This document shows, one piece after another, positions 26,782 through 33,622 of a DNA stretch of 64,000 nt. This DNA comes from Bacillota bacterium (lineage in GTDB: Bacteria; Bacillota; JAAYKD01), in NCBI GenBank assembly GCA_963666425.2, contig OY762825.2, forward strand, positions 64,001 through 128,000. Reading direction: 5' to 3'. The translations under genes and the position numbers were made by a program. Positions within the stretch are counted from its first letter, which is position 1. Every line of letters begins with the position of its first letter. The notes under the pieces were generated by a model, which worked only from the letters and a program-made list of their open reading frames with translations, was not told the DNA's origin and searched no databases.

Positions 26782-27948
26782 ATGAGAACCATCATCATTG
26801 TCTTGGATAGTGTGGGCTGCGGCGCTTTGCCGGATGCAGCCATCTATGGCGATCAAAACGCCAATACGCTGGCGCATGTGGCAGATGCGGTGGGGGGGCT
26901 AAAGATCCCTCAGCTGCGCGATCTGGGCTTAGGCAATATTTTGTCGCTCGCCGGAGGAGCAACAGTGGCGTCACCCAGCGCCGCTTACGGTAAAATGGCG
27001 GAGGTTTCGCCCGGGAAGGATACCATCACCGGTCATTGGGAGATGGCAGGCCTAAGGTTGGTGCAGCCTTTTGCGGTTTATCCCGGCGGCTTTCCGGTGG
27101 AGTTGATAGAGCGCCTGGAAGCGGCCATCGGCCGAAAAACTTTGGGCAATGTCGCCGCATCTGGCACGGACATTATCGTACAATTGGGTCCGGAGCATCA
27201 GAAAACCGGTTATCCGATTGTCTATACCTCAGCGGACAGTGTGATGCAAATTGCGGTTCATCTGGAGACGGTGCCCTTGGCACAGCTTTACGCATGGTGC
27301 GAAATTGCCCGCCAACTCTGCCGCGGCAGCTATGAGGTCGCGCGGATCATCGCCAGACCTTTTATCGGTTCGCCGGGGGCATATTTTCGCACGGCCGAGC
27401 GGCACGACTACCCGATTAATCCGGGTGGCAATCATCTGCTGACCTTGCTGCAGGAACGCGGTATTCCGGTTTATGCGGTTGGTAAAATTGCCGACGTGTT
27501 TTGTAATGAGGGTGTCACCGCTTCCTATAAAACAAAAGATAATCTGGATGGCATGCAAATAACCGAAAAGCTGCTGTTGGAGAAAAGGGAAGACTGTTTG
27601 ATTTTCACCAATCTGGTGGAGTTCGATTCGCTTTACGGTCACCGCAATAATCCCAGCGGCTATGCCGGCGCGCTGGAAGAATTCGACCGGTTTTTACCCC
27701 GTTTGCTGCAAAATCTGCAGGCGGATGACTGGCTGATCATCACAGCAGATCATGGCTGTGACCCAACCAGCGTCGGTACGGATCACAGCAGGGAATATGT
27801 GCCGCTGCTGCTTTACGGTCCCAATATCTTGCCGGGAGCCCTCGAGACCCGGAGTTCCTTTGCTGATTTGGGAACCACCATCGCTTACCGTTATGGTTGT
27901 ACAATGCCGCTGCATGGCACCTTGATTCCTGTTCAGTCTAGAAAATAG
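26782..27948 (+). CDS. deoB: Phosphopentomutase
   Basis: VLDSVGCG, GKDTITGHWE, YTSADSV, YGHRN, TADHGCDP, DHSRE. Confidence 0.95.
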   Translation: MRTIIIVLDSVGCGALPDAAIYGDQNANTLAHVADAVGGLKIPQLRDLGLGNILSLAGGATVASPSAAYGKMAEVSPGKDTITGHWEMAGLRLVQPFAVYPGGFPVELIERLEAAIGRKTLGNVAASGTDIIVQLGPEHQKTGYPIVYTSADSVMQIAVHLETVPLAQLYAWCEIARQLCRGSYEVARIIARPFIGSPGAYFRTAERHDYPINPGGNHLLTLLQERGIPVYAVGKIADVFCNEGVTASYKTKDNLDGMQITEKLLLEKREDCLIFTNLVEFDSLYGHRNNPSGYAGALEEFDRFLPRLLQNLQADDWLIITADHGCDPTSVGTDHSREYVPLLLYGPNILPGALETRSSFADLGTTIAYRYGCTMPLHGTLIPVQSRK

Positions 27949-28142
27949 CTGCAGAGCACCTTGATTCCTGTTCAGTTTAGAAAATAGCTGCATGGCACCT
28001 TGATTCCTGTTCAGTCTAGAAAACAGCTGCATGGCACTCTAATTCCCGTTCGATCAATAAAATAGCTGCATCGCACTCTAATTCCCGTTCGATCGATAAA
28101 ATAGCTGCATCGCACTCTGATTCCCGTTCAGTCAGTAAAATA
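27909..28142 (+). repeat. Six tandem 39-bp repeats derived from the deoB 3' end
   Basis: GCTGCATGGCACCTTGATTCCTGTTCAGTCTAGAAAATA-like units at 27909, 27948, 27987, 28026, 28065 and 28104. Confidence 0.95.
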
Positions 28143-28147
28143 GCTTA

Positions 28148-28181
28148 AAAAGGCGGTACTTCGTGTGGAAGTACTGCCTTT
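28148..28181. terminator. Intrinsic terminator after deoB and the 39-bp repeats
   Basis: AAAAGGCGGTACTTC-GTGTG-GAAGTACTGCCTTTT. Confidence 0.75.
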
Positions 28182-28833
28182 TGATTTGGTTGATTCGATT
28201 TTGTCACGTTTGCACCATTGTGGTTTGATTTGTATATAAAACTTCAACGTTACAATAATGATATGCTGTGTTGATAAATTTATGGCGAAAATGTAGGGAA
28301 CGGTCTTGACCGTTCCGCCGTAACAATTCACCATTCCGTTGTAGATTTTTACTATTCCAATGTGATAATTCCATCGCGGTTTAGTTTGCACTTAACACTT
28401 CAACGTTGCAAGAATGAAATGCAGTGTTGATCGCTATGTTGCGGAACGGTCAAGACCGTTCCCTACAACTGTTCCAATGTGAATGTTGATCATTACAATG
28501 TGAATCGTTACGGTATGGAATTACCGTTTCGGCGTGGTTTGTACTTAACACTTCAATGATGCGATAATGTTGGATTGATTATTGTATTACAGCGTGGTTT
28601 GCACTTAACACTTCAACGTTGCAAGAATGATATGCAGTGTTGATAAATTTATGGCGAAAATGTAGGGAACGGTCTTGACCGTTCCGCCGTAACAATTCAC
28701 CCTTCCAATGTGAAAATTCCATCGCGGTTTAGTTTGCACTTAACACTTCAACGTTACAATAATGATATGCTGTGTTGATAAATTTATGGCGAAAATGTAG
28801 CCAGCTATCAAACGTCAAGTGGCAAAACGAAAA

Positions 28834-30006
28834 TTATATTCTGGGAACATAAGGCTTTTTATCCCTTAAAACAGCAAAAACAATGTTGCATAATTTATGT
28901 GTAACAGCTCCAATTGCCGTCATATAATCTTTTCCTTCGTCGCGTTTCTTCTGGTAAAAAGCAGACATGACCGGATCTTTTTGCGCGGCAACCGTTGCGG
29001 CATTCCAGAGCGCTCTGCGCAGATAAGGTGAGCCTCGCTTCGACATCGTGTTGTGCGTTGAAGTGAAATTACCGGATTGCTTAATCGAAGGGTCAATACC
29101 GGCAAATGCCGCCAGTTTCTTTGGATTTTCGAAATTATCAATATTGCCGATTTCCGAGTAGATCACCGCAGCCGAGGTGACTCCAACACCAATAATGGTA
29201 TCCAGATAGCATTCACATTGGGAATAGATCTGCTCAATCTTATTCTCAATTGCGTCAATCTGTTCTTCAATGAATTGAATCAGATCCACGGTTTGGTGTA
29301 ATTCAAAGCATAGAGCAGCGTTCGCTCTATTCACACCAACAGTGTGTCTGCAGGCGCTGCGGATCTCCAGCGCTTTTTCCTCACCGAAACTGCCGCGGGA
29401 ATGCTTCGCTAAAAAATCAGCCAACCGCTTTGTGCCGAGCTTCAGAATGGCATCCGGTGACGGATACTTGCTGAGCAACTCCAGCGAAGTTTTACCGAAA
29501 ATATTGGAAAACAGCTTGTGATATTCCGGAAAAAGGTGATCCAGCACGCCAATTACATGGTTTTTGTGCTTTGCAATCTCATCAACCAGAGAACAGCGGA
29601 AACGGCATAACTCGCGTAAATTCTGGACATCCTCCGTTTGTACCGCTACGTCGGAATAACGTCCCATGCGGATCACATCCGCGATATAACCGCAATCCAC
29701 CGTATCCGTCTTGGTTTTACGGACAGACATGCGCCGTATGGCGTCGGTGAGCAGGGGATTGACCACATGCAATTCAATTCCTAAATCGAGTAAAACACAA
29801 TAAAAATTCAGCCAGTAATGACCGGTGGCTTCCATGCCGACGCAAATTGCATCTTGCTTTTGGTAAAGAGCGACCTTCTGCAAAAACAATTGAAAGCCCT
29901 CTTCGGAATTTTCAAATGCAAACGAGGGAGCCAGCGCTTGACCACTGGCGTCCACCGCGATCGCCTGGTGACGGAATTTACCGATGTCTACGCCAAAAGT
30001 AATCAT
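28834..30006 (-). CDS. IS110 family DEDD transposase (bridge recombinase)
   Basis: GVDIG, MEATG and KTDTVD acidic tetrad; C-terminal LAAFAGIDPSIKQSG and SKRGSPYLR. Confidence 0.96.
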   Translation of the reverse strand: MITFGVDIGKFRHQAIAVDASGQALAPSFAFENSEEGFQLFLQKVALYQKQDAICVGMEATGHYWLNFYCVLLDLGIELHVVNPLLTDAIRRMSVRKTKTDTVDCGYIADVIRMGRYSDVAVQTEDVQNLRELCRFRCSLVDEIAKHKNHVIGVLDHLFPEYHKLFSNIFGKTSLELLSKYPSPDAILKLGTKRLADFLAKHSRGSFGEEKALEIRSACRHTVGVNRANAALCFELHQTVDLIQFIEEQIDAIENKIEQIYSQCECYLDTIIGVGVTSAAVIYSEIGNIDNFENPKKLAAFAGIDPSIKQSGNFTSTHNTMSKRGSPYLRRALWNAATVAAQKDPVMSAFYQKKRDEGKDYMTAIGAVTHKLCNIVFAVLRDKKPYVPRI

Positions 30007-30042
30007 TTACAGCAACTCCTCAAACTGGAATGCGGCAAAGGA

Positions 30043-30193
30043 TGATCTCTCTGACGCTGACAGTTGCAACCTCGCGTGAAATACAAGGATTTTACCCTAT
30101 CCAGCCAATACGCAGATTTCTGTCAGATCAGAGGCAACACTCTACATCACAGGAACGATTCCCAGGGAACAGTACGTTGACCTCTGCCTGACA
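30043..30193 (-). ncRNA. Predicted bridge RNA of IS110 copy 1 (boundaries approximate)
   Basis: Two internal-loop hairpins holding target guides (30172-30164, 30147-30142) and donor guides (30107-30101, 30074-30071). Confidence 0.8.
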
Positions 30194-30853
30194 AAATTAT
30201 ACCACAAAGGGCAAACCCCTTGGATACTTAAAGAGTGGCTTTGGCTCGCTTCCTGTACCCTGTAAATGAGTTACCTTGGCACTACTAGTATATACGAGGG
30301 AACGGTCTTGACCGTTCCGCCGTAACAATTCACCATTCCAATGTGAAAATTCCATCGCGGTTTAGTTTGCACTGAATATTTCAACGTTGCAAGAATATTA
30401 GGTTGTCTTGATCGCTATATTGCGGAACGGTCAAGACCGTTCCCTACAACTGTTCCAATGTGAATGTTGATCATTACAATGTGAATGTTGATCATTACAA
30501 TGTGAATCGTTACGGTATGGAATTACCGTTTCGGCGTGGTTTGCACTTAACACTTCAACGTTGCAATAATGAAATGCAGTGTTGATCGCTATGTTGCGGA
30601 ATGGTCAAGACCGTTCCCTACAACTGTTCCAATGTGAATGTTGATCATTACAATGTGGATCGTTACGGTATGGAATTACCGTTTCGGCGTGGTTTGTACT
30701 TATCGCTTCGATGATGCGATAATGTTGGATTGATTTTTGCATTACAGCGTGGTTTGCACTTAACACTTCAACGTTGCAATAATGAAATGCAGTGTTAATA
30801 AATTTATGGCAGAAATGTAGCCAGCTATCAAACGTCAAGTGGCAAAACGAAAA

Positions 30854-32026
30854 TTATATTCTGGGAACATAAGGCTTTTTATCCCTTAAAACAGCAAAAA
30901 CAATGTTGCATAATTTATGTGTAACAGCTCCAATTGCCGTCATATAATCTTTTCCTTCGTCGCGTTTCTTCTGGTAAAAAGCAGACATGACCGGATCTTT
31001 TTGCGCGGCAACCGTTGCGGCATTCCAGAGCGCTCTGCGCAGATAAGGTGAGCCTCGCTTCGACATCGTGTTGTGCGTTGAAGTGAAATTACCGGATTGC
31101 TTAATCGAAGGGTCAATACCGGCAAATGCCGCCAGTTTCTTTGGATTTTCGAAATTATCAATATTGCCGATTTCCGAGTAGATCACCGCAGCCGAGGTGA
31201 CTCCAACACCAATAATGGTATCCAGATAGCATTCACATTGGGAATAGATCTGCTCAATCTTTTTTTCAATTGCGTCAATCTGTTCTTCAATGAATTGAAT
31301 CAGCTCCACGGTTTGGTGTAATTCAAAGCATAGAGCAGCATTCGCTCTATTCACCCCAACTGTGTGTTTGCAGGCGCTGCGGATCTCCAGCGCTTTTTCC
31401 TCACCGAAACTGCCGCGGGAATGCTTCGCTAAAAAATCAGCCAACCGCTTTGTGCCGAGCTTCAGAATGGCATCCGGTGACGGATACTTGCTGAGCAACT
31501 CCAGCGAAGTTTTACCGAAAATATCTGAAAAAAGCTTGTGATATTCCGGAAAAAGATGATCCAGCACGCCAATTACATGGTTTTTGTGCTTTGCAATCTC
31601 ATCAACCAGAGAACAGCGGAAACGGCATAACTCGCGTAAATTCTGGACATCCTCCGTTTGTACCGCTACGTCGGAATAACGTCCCATGCGGATCACATCC
31701 GCGATATAACCGCAATCCACCGTATCCGTCTTGGTTTTACGGACAGACATGCGCCGTATGGCGTCGGTGAGCAGGGGATTGACCACATGCAATTCAATTC
31801 CTAAATCGAGTAAAACACAATAAAAATTCAGCCAGTAATGACCGGTGGCTTCCATGCCGACGCAAATTGCATCTTGCTTTTGGTAAAGAGCGACCTTCTG
31901 CAAAAACAATTGAAAGCCCTCTTCGGAATTTTCAAATGCAAACGAGGGAGCCAGCGCTTGACCACTGGCGTCCACCGCGATCGCCTGGTGACGGAATTTA
32001 CCGATGTCTACGCCAAAAGTAATCAT
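30854..32026 (-). CDS. IS110 family DEDD transposase (bridge recombinase)
   Basis: Intact 390-aa ORF with 4 substitutions relative to copy 1. Confidence 0.96.
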   Translation of the reverse strand: MITFGVDIGKFRHQAIAVDASGQALAPSFAFENSEEGFQLFLQKVALYQKQDAICVGMEATGHYWLNFYCVLLDLGIELHVVNPLLTDAIRRMSVRKTKTDTVDCGYIADVIRMGRYSDVAVQTEDVQNLRELCRFRCSLVDEIAKHKNHVIGVLDHLFPEYHKLFSDIFGKTSLELLSKYPSPDAILKLGTKRLADFLAKHSRGSFGEEKALEIRSACKHTVGVNRANAALCFELHQTVELIQFIEEQIDAIEKKIEQIYSQCECYLDTIIGVGVTSAAVIYSEIGNIDNFENPKKLAAFAGIDPSIKQSGNFTSTHNTMSKRGSPYLRRALWNAATVAAQKDPVMSAFYQKKRDEGKDYMTAIGAVTHKLCNIVFAVLRDKKPYVPRI

Positions 32027-32062
32027 TTACAGCAACTCCTCAAACTGGAATGCGGCAAAGGA

Positions 32063-32213
32063 TGATCTCTCTGACGCTGACAGCTGCAACCTCGCGTGAA
32101 ATACAAGGATTTTACCCTATCCAGCCAATACGCAGATTTCTGTCAGATCAGAGGCAACACTCTACATCACAGGAACGATTCCCAGGGAACAGTACGTTGA
32201 CCTCTGCCTGACA
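32063..32213 (-). ncRNA. Predicted bridge RNA of IS110 copy 2
   Basis: Guides identical to copy 1 (32192-32184, 32167-32162, 32127-32121, 32094-32091). Confidence 0.8.
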
Positions 32214-32495
32214 AAATTATACCACAAAGGGCAAACCCCTTGGATACCTAAAGAGTGGCTTTGGCTCGCTTCCTGTACCCCGTAAATGAGTTACCTTGGC
32301 ACTACTAGTATATACGAGGGAACGGTCTTGACCGTTCCCTACTACTGCTCCGATGTGGATGTTTGCTATTTCGACATGAATCGTTACGATATGGAATTAC
32401 CGTTTCGGCGTGGTTTGTACTTATCGCTTCGGTACTGTAAATATTCTGATCATCGCTCTACAAATACCAATAACGCTTCTCACAATTGCTTTTAG

Positions 32496-33425
32496 TTAAA
32501 TTCGATTGCTGCTGCCTAACACATCACGCATTTTATGCGCTACCATGGCTTGAATTGCGTTTCTGGCCGGTGTTAAGTATTGGCGCGGATCAAAATCGGC
32601 GGGATGGTTGATGAAATGACTGCGGATAGAAGCAGTCATCGCCAAGCGAAGATCGGTGTCGATGTTGATCTTGCAAACTCCCATGCCGGCAGCCTGCCGC
32701 AGCATTTCTTCCGGTACTCCTTGAGCGCCCTGAATATCACCACCGTATTGATTGCACATGGCGACGAATTCCGGCAGCACGGTTGAGGCGCCATGCAGGA
32801 CAATCGGATATCCTGGCATCATCGCCGCAATTTTTTCTAAACGCTGAAAATCAAGCTTCGGGGTGCCTTTAAATTTATAAGCGCCGTGGCTGGTGCCGAT
32901 GGAGATGGCTAAGGAGTCAACCCCGGTTCTTTGCACAAATTCCACTGCCTGGTCGGGATCGGTGAAACTGGCGTCTTTACCGCTGACTTTGATCTCATCT
33001 TCGATGCCGGCCAATTTACCCAATTCGCCTTCCACCACAATGCCTTTACTGTGGGCGTAATCCACAACTTCTTTGGTTACGGCAATGTTTTTCTCAAAAT
33101 CATATTTAGAACCATCGATCATGACAGAACTGAAACCACCATCAACGCATGCTTTGCAGATCGCAAAATCCTCACCATGATCCAGATGCAGGGCAATATC
33201 CAAACCGCTGTCGAGCATAGCTGCTTCCACCAATTTCATCAGATAAATATGCTTTGCGTATTTTCTGGCTCCGGCGGAAACCTGCAAAATCAAGGGAGAG
33301 CGTTCCTGCTTTGCAGCTTCGACGATCCCTTGGATGATTTCCATATTGTTGACGTTGAATGCACCAACCGCATATTTTCCTTCATACGCTTTGCGGAACA
33401 TTTCTTTGGTCGAGACAAGTGCCAT
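32496..33425 (-). CDS. fba: Class II fructose-1,6-bisphosphate aldolase
   Basis: MALV start after GGAGGAG; ALHLDHG, GTSHGAYKF, VLHGAS, KINIDTD. Confidence 0.95.
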   Translation of the reverse strand: MALVSTKEMFRKAYEGKYAVGAFNVNNMEIIQGIVEAAKQERSPLILQVSAGARKYAKHIYLMKLVEAAMLDSGLDIALHLDHGEDFAICKACVDGGFSSVMIDGSKYDFEKNIAVTKEVVDYAHSKGIVVEGELGKLAGIEDEIKVSGKDASFTDPDQAVEFVQRTGVDSLAISIGTSHGAYKFKGTPKLDFQRLEKIAAMMPGYPIVLHGASTVLPEFVAMCNQYGGDIQGAQGVPEEMLRQAAGMGVCKINIDTDLRLAMTASIRSHFINHPADFDPRQYLTPARNAIQAMVAHKMRDVLGSSNRI

Positions 33426-33622
33426 TTTGATCTCCTCCTTTTTTCTTATCATAGCACAATCAAAAAAATTTGTCATCAGTTTCAGAAAAAGAAGCAAGCA
33501 ATCTCTTGATTTGCAGCGACTGGTAGGATTTTTCTTTCTATAAAGCGAATAGCATAGGATGTGATGGGGGAGAGGGATTATGTCCACCGGATGAACAGAT
33601 TTTTTTTGAGGAGTAATGAAAA

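What the first reader, a model, noticed from the sequence alone, without database searches (positions are those of the whole stretch)
28799..32318. REP-targeting IS110 bridge recombinase with readable target and donor guides
In element orientation the target is CCGTTCC-CT-ACAT and the circle junction (donor) is TAGCTGG-CT-CGTA. The left end folds as CAGAGG-U-CAAC [CUGUUCCCU, GGAA-UCG-UUCC hairpin, AUGUAG] GUUG-CCUCUG. The left guide matches the target at 8/9 (the difference is a U-G wobble) and the right guide is the reverse complement of CTACAT. A second loop holds UGGCUGG (donor left, one wobble, followed by AU rather than CU), an AGGG..UCCU hairpin and (G)CGAG (reverse complement of CTCG). 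This is the bridge-RNA logic established for IS621, which also uses a CT core at the GTAG of E. coli REPs, but with different guides, host phylum and REP family. It is a candidate new programmable recombinase.
Basis: partly seen in the sequence, partly recalled or inferred. Interest (0 to 1): 0.92.

Follow-up and report, generated by a model that had tools for sequence, protein, structure and literature searches.

The report
REP-targeting IS110 element with bridge RNA
The interval holds two copies of a small mobile element of the well-known IS110 family. Its left end encodes a guide ("bridge") RNA that matches the repeated palindromic site it inserts into, so it is a real but ordinary new member of a known RNA-guided recombinase family.

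Summary
Observation confirmed.

- **What is there.** Window 28799-32318 holds two 1500-bp IS110-family copies on the minus strand, 28799-30298 and 30819-32318, 14 differences apart. A 520-bp REP spacer separates them.
- **Copies and sites.** The genome has 10 full copies, all with intact 390-aa ORFs carrying DEDD_Tnp_IS110 plus Transposase_20. All ten sit at the CT of AC[C/T]GTTCC-CT-AC[A/C]T beside one REP hairpin. A further 121 such sites are empty.
- **Target loop.** The left end carries CUGUUCCCU and AUGUAG in an internal loop closed by CAGAGG-U-CAAC / GUUG-CCUCUG. CUGUUCCCU matches 2 of 10 sites exactly and the other 8 at 8 of 9, the difference being a G-U wobble.
- **Donor loop.** A second loop carries UGGCUGG-AU and GCGAG, matching the circle junction TAGCTGG-CT-CGTA.
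- **Homologues.** 71 homologous left ends (43-64% protein identity, mostly Bacillota) share this architecture, and 17 of 19 consensus pairs show compensatory changes. Their guides track their own flanks; 0 of 5000 shuffles reach the observed match for either target guide.
- **Not shown.** RNA expression, circle formation and recombination.
- **Verdict.** A new member of a known kind, one of thousands of IS110 orthologues.
- **Minor points of interest.** One copy carries a U-to-C change in the left target guide. Copy A carries a stem-breaking mutation in the donor loop. Most relatives target Shine-Dalgarno-like sites instead of a REP.

The parts
28799..30298 (-). IS110-family element, copy A, 1500 bp including the CT core at both ends
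30819..32318 (-). IS110-family element, copy B, 14 differences from A. All copy-A sub-features lie at copy-A coordinate + 2020.
28834..30006 (-). Recombinase ORF of copy A, 390 aa: DEDD_Tnp_IS110 (residues 5-160) plus Transposase_20 (268-352). Catalytic residues D7, E59, D101, D104, S311.
30854..32026 (-). Recombinase ORF of copy B, 390 aa, 386 of 390 identical to A. None of the four differences is at a catalytic residue.
30297..30298 (-). Core CT at the left end of copy A (AG on the + strand). The right-end core is at 28799-28800.
30129..30186 (-). Target-binding loop of copy A: closing stem CAGAGG-U-CAAC / GUUG-CCUCUG, inner hairpin GGGAA-UCG-UUCC
30164..30172 (-). Left target guide CUGUUCCCU. 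With the preceding A it reads ACUGUUCCCU, equal to the top strand of the target AC[C/T]GTTCC-CT.
30142..30147 (-). Right target guide AUGUAG, the reverse complement of CT-ACAT
30057..30126 (-). Donor-binding loop of copy A: outer helix CUGACAG/CUGUCAG, inner helix CUGC/GCA(A). Element position 235 (window 30064) is A only in copy A and breaks the C-G pair kept by the other nine copies.
30099..30107 (-). Left donor guide UGGCUGG-AU, against the right end TAGCTGG-CT
30070..30075 (-). Right donor guide GCGAG plus a following G. GCGAG pairs with CT-CGT of the left end, with a G-T wobble at the last position.
30196..30204 (-). TGGTATAAT, an extended -10-like motif just upstream of the target loop. 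[GT]ATAAT is nearly invariant in the homologues. Its promoter function is inferred only.
   Evidence: not found by the two-hexamer scan
30287..30292 (-). TATACT in the left end, the -10 half of the inferred circle-junction promoter
   Evidence: sequence
28813..28818 (-). TTGACG in the right end, the -35 half of the inferred circle-junction promoter. It lies 18 nt from TATACT once the ends are joined through one CT.
   Evidence: sequence
30299..30318 (.). REP hairpin GGAACGGTCTTGACCGTTCC abutting the left end of copy A. The equivalent REP for copy B is at 32319-32338.
28660..28685 (-). Unoccupied copy of the same target (ATGTAG|GGAACGG...), 114 bp from copy A. Another lies at 28291-28316.

Best explanation
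Each copy is an autonomous insertion sequence of the IS110 group of the IS110 family. It encodes a 390-aa DEDD/Ser recombinase and, in its 290-nt left end, a bridge RNA with two internal loops.

**How the guides read (inferred from the IS621 rules).**
[quoted passage not shown] **Inferred cycle.** The element excises or copies out as a circle whose RE-CT-LE junction is the donor. That junction also assembles a -35/-10 promoter, TTGACG-18 nt-TATACT. The recombinase tetramer with the RNA then exchanges strands at the CT core, which places the element at the GTAG/CTAC head of the REP.

**Shown here:**
- element boundaries and the duplicated CT;
- ten insertions in one site type;
- domain content and catalytic residues;
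- the conserved RNA architecture;
- guide-flank covariation in relatives.

**Inferred, not shown:** transcription, RNA-protein binding, the circle, the chemistry, and present-day activity.
For: **Copies and sites.**
- 10 of 10 genomic copies are flanked by the same REP and a duplicated CT.
- 121 empty sites match AC[CT]GTTCCCTAC, against about 3 expected for the 11-mer.

**Protein.** Pfam DEDD_Tnp_IS110 at 1.5e-40 and Transposase_20 at 8.1e-26. phmmer hits IS621 and ISCro4 structures, with the catalytic residues aligned.

**Target loop in this element.** The left guide matches 9 of 9 at 2 sites, and 8 of 9 plus a wobble at 8 sites. The right guide matches 6 of 6 at 7 sites and 5 of 6 at 3 sites. 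A comparable arrangement arose in 10 of 20000 shuffles.

**Conserved structure.** In 72 aligned left ends, 17 of 19 consensus pairs keep pairing through changes on both sides.

**Covariation in homologues.**

| Guide | Observed match | Shuffled pairing | Shuffles reaching observed |
|---|---|---|---|
| Left target guide vs left flank (51 unique pairs) | 5.33 of 7 non-core positions | 3.97 | 0 of 5000 |
| Right target guide vs right flank (54 unique pairs) | 3.31 of 5 | 1.74 | 0 of 5000 |

- The donor left-guide 5-mer equals the right end in 61 of 61 (GCTGG, GTTGG, GCCGG, GTTAG).
- The donor right-guide 5-mer equals the left end in 51 of 54.

**Signs of recent mobility.** All 10 ORFs are intact. 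Copies differ by 0-16 nt, with identical copies at unlinked loci (c5 = c7; c8 = c9 = c10 on another contig).

**Junction promoter.** In most homologues it is TTGACT-17 nt-TATAAT across the joined ends.
Against: - **No direct evidence of RNA, circle or activity.** The runs available were assembled contigs only. Two contigs of one metatranscriptome cover 29812-30078 and 30110-30320, but may derive from DNA or read-through. No contig shows the precise RE-CT-LE junction.
- **No Rfam match.** Rfam 15 gave no family match to the left end.
- **Unremarkable fold energy.** z = -1.45 for 204 nt. The minimum-energy folds pair parts of the guides with each other.
- **Imperfect donor loop.** The left donor guide matches 7 of 9 (one wobble, and A opposite the core C). 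The right donor guide has only 4-5 contiguous pairs. By itself that pattern arises in 4.5% of shuffles.
- **No canonical promoter or terminator** was found in the left end by the simple scan.
- **Copy A is damaged.** It carries a private G-to-A change that breaks a donor-loop stem pair.
- **Some homologue insertions fit their guide poorly.** 2 of 54 match only 2 of 7 positions, for example L018.
Confidence: 0.9

Rival explanations
1. The REP hairpin itself, as DNA structure read by the protein, is the main or a co-equal specificity determinant. On this reading the RNA match is only part of the recognition, as in the 'sequence-structure dual-match' reported for ISPpu10.
For: All 10 insertions abut a 20-nt perfect palindrome, and the left guide overlaps its 3' arm. 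The ISPpu10 preprint reports a target stem-loop acting as an added determinant (abstract only).
Against: Most relatives with the same RNA architecture insert at non-palindromic CCTCC-CT sites, and their guides track those sites. A hairpin is therefore not required in the subfamily. Nothing here tests it for this element.
Confidence: 0.25
2. The copies are recent but now immobile relics, for example RNA not expressed or recombinase inactive. The tandem pairs would then arise from duplication of REP units rather than from transposition.
For: - Copy A has a stem-breaking mutation.
- c8 and c9 are identical and their 45-nt left flanks differ at one position, which is compatible with a tandem duplication.
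- No circle junction was seen.
Against: - 10 of 10 ORFs are intact.
- Identical copies lie at unlinked loci and on another contig.
- Copies within the pairs A/B (14 differences) and c6/c7 (15) are less alike than copies at distant loci, so these pairs are independent insertions.
Confidence: 0.12
3. The guide-like matches are chance, or are left over from the target duplication, and the left end is only a 5' UTR and promoter region.
For: Fold energy is not exceptional. There is no Rfam hit.
Against: A comparable arrangement arose in 10 of 20000 shuffles. Homologues keep the architecture with compensatory pairs, and their guides follow different flanks.
Confidence: 0.02

Closest known systems
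IS621 of Escherichia coli (bridge recombinase; PDB 8WT6 and related)
   Same: - Same two Pfam domains and the same DEDD plus Ser-Gly catalytic residues.
- A CT core.
- RNA encoded in the left end, with a target loop and a donor loop.
- Left guides read as top-strand sequence and right guides as reverse complement.
- A G-T wobble at donor position 12.
- Insertion at the CTAC/GTAG head of a REP (IS621 target ATCAGGC-CT-AC).
- A promoter rebuilt across the joined ends (PMC11208160 and PMC11208158, passages).
   Different: - Distant in sequence: phmmer E about 1e-20, aligned only over parts, 390 against 326 aa.
- Different guides and a different REP family.
- The right target guide matches 6 nt rather than 4.
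- The left donor guide has A opposite the core C followed by U, whereas IS621 pairs the C and follows it with an unpaired A.
- The nucleotide after the right target guide (A) pairs with neither donor nor target position 7, so a target-loop handshake is not evident.
- The host's nearest relatives are Bacillota.
CazIS110-1 of Caloranaerobacter azorensis (bioRxiv 10.1101/2025.10.25.684509; abstract and sections 5 and 8 read)
   Same: A multicopy IS110 element (also 10 copies) of a Clostridia-class host. It has a bridge RNA of about 170 nt with target and donor loops, and has been reconstituted in vivo and in vitro.
   Different: Relatedness to this element is therefore untested. Its reported TBL-only RNA and 'direct transfer' pathway are untested here.
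ISPpu9 and ISPpu10 of Pseudomonas putida
   Same: IS110-family elements inserted in REP or a conserved intergenic stem-loop sequence, in several copies per genome (PMC12288879, start of abstract in the listing; 10.64898/2026.03.19.712850, abstract).
   Different: Proteobacterial hosts and other REP sequences. No sequence comparison was made here.
IS1111 subgroup of the IS110 family (seekRNA elements)
   Same: The same recombinase family.
   Different: As I recall it (from no call), that subgroup carries its guide RNA downstream of the gene and has subterminal inverted repeats. Here the right end is only 33 nt and the RNA lies upstream.

Membership tests
IS110 family, IS110 group (bridge-RNA-guided recombinase elements) | N-terminal RuvC-like domain (PF01548) with a DEDD motif | tested here: met
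   PF01548 at 1.5e-40, residues 5-160. E59, D101 and D104 align to IS621 E60, D102 and D105. D7 aligns to the first Asp of ISCro4 (residue names).
IS110 family, IS110 group (bridge-RNA-guided recombinase elements) | C-terminal Tnp domain (PF02371) with the conserved catalytic Ser | tested here: met
   PF02371 at 8.1e-26. S311-G312 aligns to IS621 S241-G242.
IS110 family, IS110 group (bridge-RNA-guided recombinase elements) | Short core dinucleotide present at both element ends and once in the empty site; no terminal inverted repeats | tested here: met
   CT lies at both ends of 10 of 10 copies. Empty REPs read ...CCGTTCC-CT-ACAT. The ends CTCGTATATAC and GATAGCTGGCT are not inverted repeats, judged by eye.
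IS110 family, IS110 group (bridge-RNA-guided recombinase elements) | Long non-coding left end encoding a structured RNA with two internal loops | tested here: met
   The left end is 290 nt. The consensus structure of 72 sequences has 17 of 19 pairs with compensatory changes, covering the target-loop stem, its inner hairpin and the donor-loop stems.
IS110 family, IS110 group (bridge-RNA-guided recombinase elements) | Target-loop guides match the left target (as top-strand sequence) and the right target (as reverse complement), core included | tested here: met
   The left guide matches 9 of 9, or 8 of 9 plus a wobble. The right guide matches 6 of 6 or 5 of 6. A comparable pattern arose in 10 of 20000 shuffles. 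Homologue covariation gave 0 of 5000 shuffles for both guides.
IS110 family, IS110 group (bridge-RNA-guided recombinase elements) | Donor-loop guides match the RE-core-LE junction | tested here: met
   In this element the match is partial: 7 of 9 on the left and 5 with a wobble on the right, and it is weak alone (898 of 20000 shuffles). In homologues the guide 5-mers follow the ends in 61 of 61 and 51 of 54.
IS110 family, IS110 group (bridge-RNA-guided recombinase elements) | Promoter reconstituted across the circle junction | tested here: inconclusive
   TTGACG in the right end and TATACT in the left end would lie 18 nt apart. Homologues give TTGACT-17-TATAAT. This is sequence only; no transcription data.
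IS110 family, IS110 group (bridge-RNA-guided recombinase elements) | RNA is made, binds the recombinase and directs recombination through a circular intermediate | not testable with these tools
   Only assembled contigs were on hand. One metatranscriptome has contigs over the left end. No circle junction was seen.
REP (repetitive extragenic palindromic) family as the target | Many dispersed or clustered copies of a short palindrome with a GTAG head, associated with a RAYT-type Y1 transposase | tested here: met
   There are 182 hairpins by a loose pattern; in contig C1, 101 of 132 successive gaps are under 400 bp. The hairpin is followed by CTAC, which reads GTAG on the other strand. One of 3 Y1_Tnp genes (C1:533030-533401) has 7 of these REPs within 1.5 kb. 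Extragenic location was not checked.

The most novel reading that the evidence does not exclude
The element may be tuned for colonising REP arrays in three ways.

1. **A deliberately degenerate guide.** The U at position 2 of the left target guide would let one RNA address both REP alleles: CTGTTCC by a U-A pair and CCGTTCC by a U-G wobble. Copy c6 (U to C) would then be a guide variant arising inside the genome.
2. **Expression from integrated copies.** The conserved extended -10-like TGGTATAAT just upstream of the target loop could allow bridge RNA, or a target-loop-only RNA, to be made from integrated copies and not only from circles.
3. **A possible conformational switch.** The middle segment CUGACAG can pair either with an upstream CUGUCAG, which extends the target-loop stem, or with a downstream CUGUCAG, which closes the donor loop. 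That could toggle between a target-loop-only and a full bridge conformation.
Probability: 0.15. Interest if true: 0.5.

Novelty: new member of a known kind. Interest (0 to 1): 0.3.

Why it matters
It adds one more natural, apparently active bridge-recombinase orthologue with fully readable target and donor guides, from a host whose nearest relatives are Bacillota. It also gives a clear natural example of retargeting within a subfamily. Most relatives aim at CCTCC-CT sites that look like Shine-Dalgarno sequences on the other strand, while this one aims at a REP. As a candidate tool it is one of thousands, and nothing here suggests unusual properties. For genome biology, it shows REP arrays in this lineage being colonised repeatedly: four of the six occupied loci carry two copies in neighbouring REPs.

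Tried and rejected
- **Rfam 15 scan of 27500-33500.** The only match was IS128 at E = 0.85, far below its gathering score. Rejected as chance.
- **Simple promoter and terminator scan of 29950-30330.** Nothing found. The tool needs two hexamers, so it cannot judge an extended -10 or a promoter split across the ends.
- **Public runs.** All 24 runs listed were assembled contigs, so RNA ends, strand and circle reads cannot be judged.
  - The joint 28798>30297 (skips 1498) in X1 and X3 has only 20-21 nt on its shorter side. It is most simply a contig of another, empty REP, not evidence of excision.
  - The 'goes back 1524 with 46 letters between' contig in X6 is a tandem IS-REP-IS arrangement or an assembly cycle in a 94-96% relative, not the precise circle junction.
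  - The two RNA-library contigs in X12 are not proof of transcription.
- **Orphan bridge-RNA copies.** blastn of the element against the genome found only the 10 full copies and one 82-nt diverged left-end fragment, so no stand-alone RNA gene was seen at that sensitivity. No covariance-model search was run.
- **Host naming.** The nearest phosphopentomutase relatives, at 59% or less, are Symbiobacteriaceae and unclassified Bacillota genomes assembled from metagenomes. No closer name was obtained.
- **Relatedness to CazIS110-1.** Could not be tested, because supplements are closed and the sequence was not among the fetched loci.
- **Rows dropped.**
  - Of the 80 loci, 9 were left out of alignment A2: 4 with under 235 nt upstream, 1 with no start codon found, and 4 with identical upstream sequence.
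  - In one search the left boundary of L029 was dropped as spurious, and those of L025 and L040 were reset to the first candidate.
  - Loci without a recognisable boundary were not counted.

Full report
**What is at the coordinates.**

The interval 28799-32318 holds two elements, not one. Reading the sequence, listing ORFs and aligning the two halves shows two 1500-bp copies on the minus strand. Copy A is at 28799-30298 and copy B at 30819-32318, with 14 differences between them. A 520-bp spacer carrying REP hairpins separates them.

Each copy has a 390-aa ORF (28834-30006 and 30854-32026), a 290-nt non-coding left end and a 33-nt right end. In element orientation both read ...GACCGTTCC|CT|CGTATATAC ... 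GATAGCTGG|CT|ACAT. An uninterrupted REP 114 bp away reads ATGTAG|GGAACGG on the plus strand (28660-28685). The element is therefore bounded by a duplicated CT.

**The protein.**

Pfam finds DEDD_Tnp_IS110 (1.5e-40, residues 5-160) and Transposase_20 (8.1e-26, residues 268-352). The only solved structures matched are the ISCro4 and IS621 transposases, at E about 1e-20.

In those alignments:
- E59, D101 and D104 fall on IS621 E60, D102 and D105;
- S311-G312 falls on S241-G242;
- D7 falls on the first Asp of ISCro4.

The chain numbering of 8WT6 is offset by two from the paper's numbering, by my count. The paper states that these five residues are essential (PMC11208158, passages). Copies A and B differ at four residues, none catalytic.

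**Copies in the genome.**

The window's genome is 3.2 Mb in 18 contigs, 47% G+C, with completeness 98.5% and contamination 6.9%. blastn finds 10 full-length copies at 98.9-100% identity and one 82-nt diverged left-end fragment. A search with PF01548 finds the same 10 genes and no other IS110-family gene.

- All 10 ORFs are intact at 390 aa, and copies differ by 0-16 nt.
- Identical copies lie at unlinked loci (c5 = c7; c8 = c9 = c10, the last on contig C17).
- The two members of the tandem pairs A/B and c6/c7 differ by 14 and 15 nt. That is more than each differs from copies elsewhere, so these pairs are independent insertions into neighbouring REPs rather than duplications.
- For c8/c9 (identical copies, nearly identical flanks) a duplication cannot be excluded.

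**The target.**

All 10 copies sit in the same orientation next to the palindrome GGAAC[G/A]GTCAAGAC[C/T]GTTCC, at the CT of ...GTTCC-CT-AC.

- Eight sites read CCGTTCC and two read CTGTTCC.
- The right flank is ACAT in seven and ACCT in three.
- The genome holds 121 unoccupied AC[CT]GTTCCCTAC sites, against about 3 expected for an 11-mer. Of these, 54 are ACCGTTCCCTACAT, 10 are ACTGTTCCCTACAT and 35 are ACCGTTCCCTACCT.
- A loose pattern finds 182 hairpins, strongly clustered: in contig C1, 101 of 132 successive gaps are under 400 bp.
- On the other strand the site is GTAG followed by the palindrome, the classical REP layout as I recall it.
- One of three Y1_Tnp genes in the genome is surrounded by seven of these REPs within 1.5 kb. 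This fits a REP with its RAYT-type (REP-associated tyrosine) transposase.

The IS621 target ATCAGGC-CT-AC lies at the same CTAC tail of E. coli REPs (PMC11208160, passages).

**The RNA in this element.**

Element positions below are counted from the left-end CT, and window coordinate = 30299 minus position for copy A.

*Target loop (for positions).*
- Closing stem: CAGAGG-U-CAAC (113-123) and GUUG-CCUCUG (161-170).
- 5' side of the loop: GUA-CUGUUCCCU (guide at 127-135).
- Inner hairpin: GGGAA-UCG-UUCC.
- 3' side of the loop: ..AUGUAG.. (152-157).

The 62-nt piece folds to exactly this stem and hairpin (-19.4 kcal/mol, z = -1.9).

By the IS621 rules the left guide pairs with the bottom strand and so reads like the top strand, and the right guide pairs with the top strand. 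Both include the core (PMC11208160 section 7).

- CUGUUCCCU equals CTGTTCC-CT exactly, and equals CCGTTCC-CT with one U-G wobble.
- With the preceding A the match is 10 nt.
- AUGUAG is the reverse complement of CT-ACAT.

Such an arrangement arose in 10 of 20000 dinucleotide-preserving shuffles of the left end.

*Donor loop.*
- Outer helix: CUGACAG (173-179) with CUGUCAG (236-242).
- Inner helix: CUGC (184-187) with GCA[A/G] (232-235).
- 5' side: UGGCUGG-AU (192-200).
- Hairpin: AGGG-UAAAA-UCCU.
- 3' side: GUAUUUCAC-GCGAG-G (GCGAG at 224-228).

UGGCUGG against TAGCTGG has one G-T wobble. It is followed by AU where the core is CT. GCGAG pairs with CT-CGT, with a G-T wobble at donor position 12. 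IS621 has the same wobble there (PMC11208158 section 8).

After three unpaired bases, GUAUUU could pair with ATATAC of the left end at 5 of 6 positions. This is my inference, by analogy with the discontiguous right donor guide of IS621.

Taken alone the donor loop is weak evidence: 898 of 20000 shuffles meet a comparable criterion. The energy of the whole left-end fold is unremarkable (z = -1.45).

**Homologues settle it.**

The best 80 loci were kept. They are 43-64% identical and mostly Bacillota genomes assembled from metagenomes or isolates.

I aligned the 235 nt upstream of the start codon for 71 non-identical loci plus this element (nine loci were dropped for short flanks, a missing start codon or identical sequence). 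The alignment shows the same succession of parts:
- a [GT]ATAAT motif;
- the target-loop stem, left guide, hairpin and a right guide ending in an invariant AG;
- the donor-loop stems, a left guide ending GG-AU (G and U invariant, A in at least 90%), a hairpin, and a right guide ending in an invariant AG-G.

RNAalifold predicts 19 consensus pairs. In 17 of them some sequences keep the pair through changes on both sides.

I located element ends without using the guides. The left end was found through CT-NN-TATAAT-like motifs and the right end through TTGAC...ATAGNNNG(T)CT. I then compared guides with flanks.

| Comparison | Observed | Shuffled pairing | Shuffles reaching observed |
|---|---|---|---|
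| Left target guide vs left flank (51 unique pairs, 7 non-core positions) | 5.33 | 3.97 | 0 of 5000 |
| Right target guide vs right flank (54 unique pairs, 5 non-core positions) | 3.31 | 1.74 | 0 of 5000 |

- The five variable-to-conserved positions of the left donor guide equal the right end in 61 of 61 loci (44 GCTGG, 11 GTTGG, 5 GCCGG, 1 GTTAG).
- The right donor guide's 5-mer equals CT plus the first three left-end bases in 51 of 54 (CTCGT, CTTGT, CTACT; the three misses differ at the last base).
- Not all insertions fit. Two of 54 match their left guide at only 2 of 7 positions (for example L018), and six match at 4 of 7.
- These sequences are related, so the shuffle counts are not probabilities.

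**Differences from relatives.**

- **Target.** Most relatives aim at ..CACCTCC-CT. In 37 of 54 the reverse complement of the flank begins AGG[AGT]G, and in 23 of 54 an ATG follows 3-11 nt later. Those elements therefore sit at Shine-Dalgarno-like sequences of oppositely oriented genes. This element, and L011, L013 and L022 in part, carry ..GUUCCCCU-type guides instead. It has been retargeted to a REP.
- **Right end.** Most relatives end ..GCTGG-T-CT. This element, L001 and L066 end ..GCTGG-CT, while the guide keeps GCUGG-AU in all of them.
- **Handshake positions.** The base after GCGAG is G. It could pair with target position 7 (C) and not with donor position 7 (G), as described for IS621 position 166. 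The base after AUGUAG is A and pairs with neither.

**Variation among the ten copies in the RNA.**

- Position 128, the second base of the left target guide, is C in copy c6 only. This gives CCGUUCCCU, an exact match to the commoner REP allele.
- Position 235 is A in copy A only. It breaks the C-G pair of the donor-loop inner helix, which is a pair with compensatory changes in the family and where copy A is the single C-A outlier. The donor-loop piece of copy B folds better than that of copy A (-23.6 against -20.0 kcal/mol).

**Expression and mobility.**

Joining the ends through one CT would place TTGACG of the right end 18 nt from TATACT of the left end. In most homologues the same arithmetic gives TTGACT-17 nt-TATAAT. 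This fits the junction promoter described for the family (PMC11208160 section 5).

A second motif, TGGTATAAT, lies directly upstream of the target loop and is nearly invariant as [GT]ATAAT in the family. It may be an extended -10 promoter active in integrated copies, or part of the RNA's 5' region. The simple two-hexamer scan finds nothing in the left end.

Public runs gave only assembled contigs:
- two contigs of one metatranscriptome cover 29812-30078 and 30110-30320, which is not proof of transcription;
- no contig shows the exact circle junction;
- the apparent 'skip' of 1498 bp has only 20-21 nt on one side and is best read as another, empty REP.

**Comparison with what is known, and verdict.**

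Every sequence-level defining feature of a bridge-RNA IS110 element that could be tested was met. The junction promoter is judged from sequence only. RNA production and recombination cannot be tested with these tools.

The closest characterised systems are:
- IS621 (same logic, CT core and REP head, but a distant protein);
- the REP- or stem-loop-targeting ISPpu9 and ISPpu10;
- CazIS110-1 from a Clostridia-class host, whose relatedness I could not test.

The exact protein is already in public collections, in an unnamed 18-member cluster at 90% identity. Bridge RNAs were defined across thousands of IS110 elements. This is therefore a new member of a known kind: a correct and well-read observation, but not surprising to a specialist.

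I did not search the literature for this particular element or host, so I make no claim that it is unpublished.

Noticed in passing
G000 C1:706183-707682 (copy c6), element position 128: This one copy of ten has C instead of U at the second base of the left target guide. The guide then matches the commoner REP allele CCGTTCC exactly. The other nine reach that allele only through a U-G wobble but match the rarer CTGTTCC allele exactly.
   Followed up: partly
window 30064 (copy A, element position 235): A G-to-A change private to copy A breaks a covarying C-G pair of the donor-loop inner helix. The other nine copies and the nearest relative L001 keep G.
   Followed up: yes
loci L002-L080 (left flanks): Most homologous elements are inserted at ..CCTCC-CT. 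On the other strand this is a Shine-Dalgarno-like AGGAGG, often followed by an ATG 3-11 nt later (37 and 23 of 54 insertions). That subfamily therefore lands just upstream of genes, in the opposite orientation.
   Followed up: partly
G000 C1:533030-533401: A Y1_Tnp (IS200/RAYT-like) gene with seven copies of the same REP hairpin within 1.5 kb. It is a candidate REP-associated tyrosine transposase for this REP family. Two other Y1_Tnp genes have no such REPs nearby.
   Followed up: partly
G000 C1:1593457-1593538: A diverged (87% identical) fragment of the element's left end (positions 7-85) next to a variant REP, about 90 bp beyond copy c3 and in the opposite orientation. It is probably the relic of an older insertion. 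Contigs of runs X1 and X3 carry the same relic.
   Followed up: no
window 28291-32338: The REPs here form an array of alternating orientation embedded in longer repeated units of about 150-370 bp. Of four minus-oriented targets in this array, two are occupied (copies A and B) and two are empty. The REP at 32319-32338 has the IS on one side and a CTAC tail on the other.
   Followed up: partly
window 30057-30195 (and L001): The segment CUGACAG between the two loops can pair either with an upstream CUGUCAG, extending the target-loop stem, or with a downstream CUGUCAG, closing the donor loop. This three-way alternative is seen in this element and its nearest relative, but not evidently in the other homologues.
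   Followed up: no
run X6, contig 19 (laid on window 28797-30320): A freshwater metagenome holds a 94-96% relative of the element. It is assembled as left end-REP-46 nt-right end, which means either tandem copies separated by one short REP unit or an assembly cycle.
   Followed up: no
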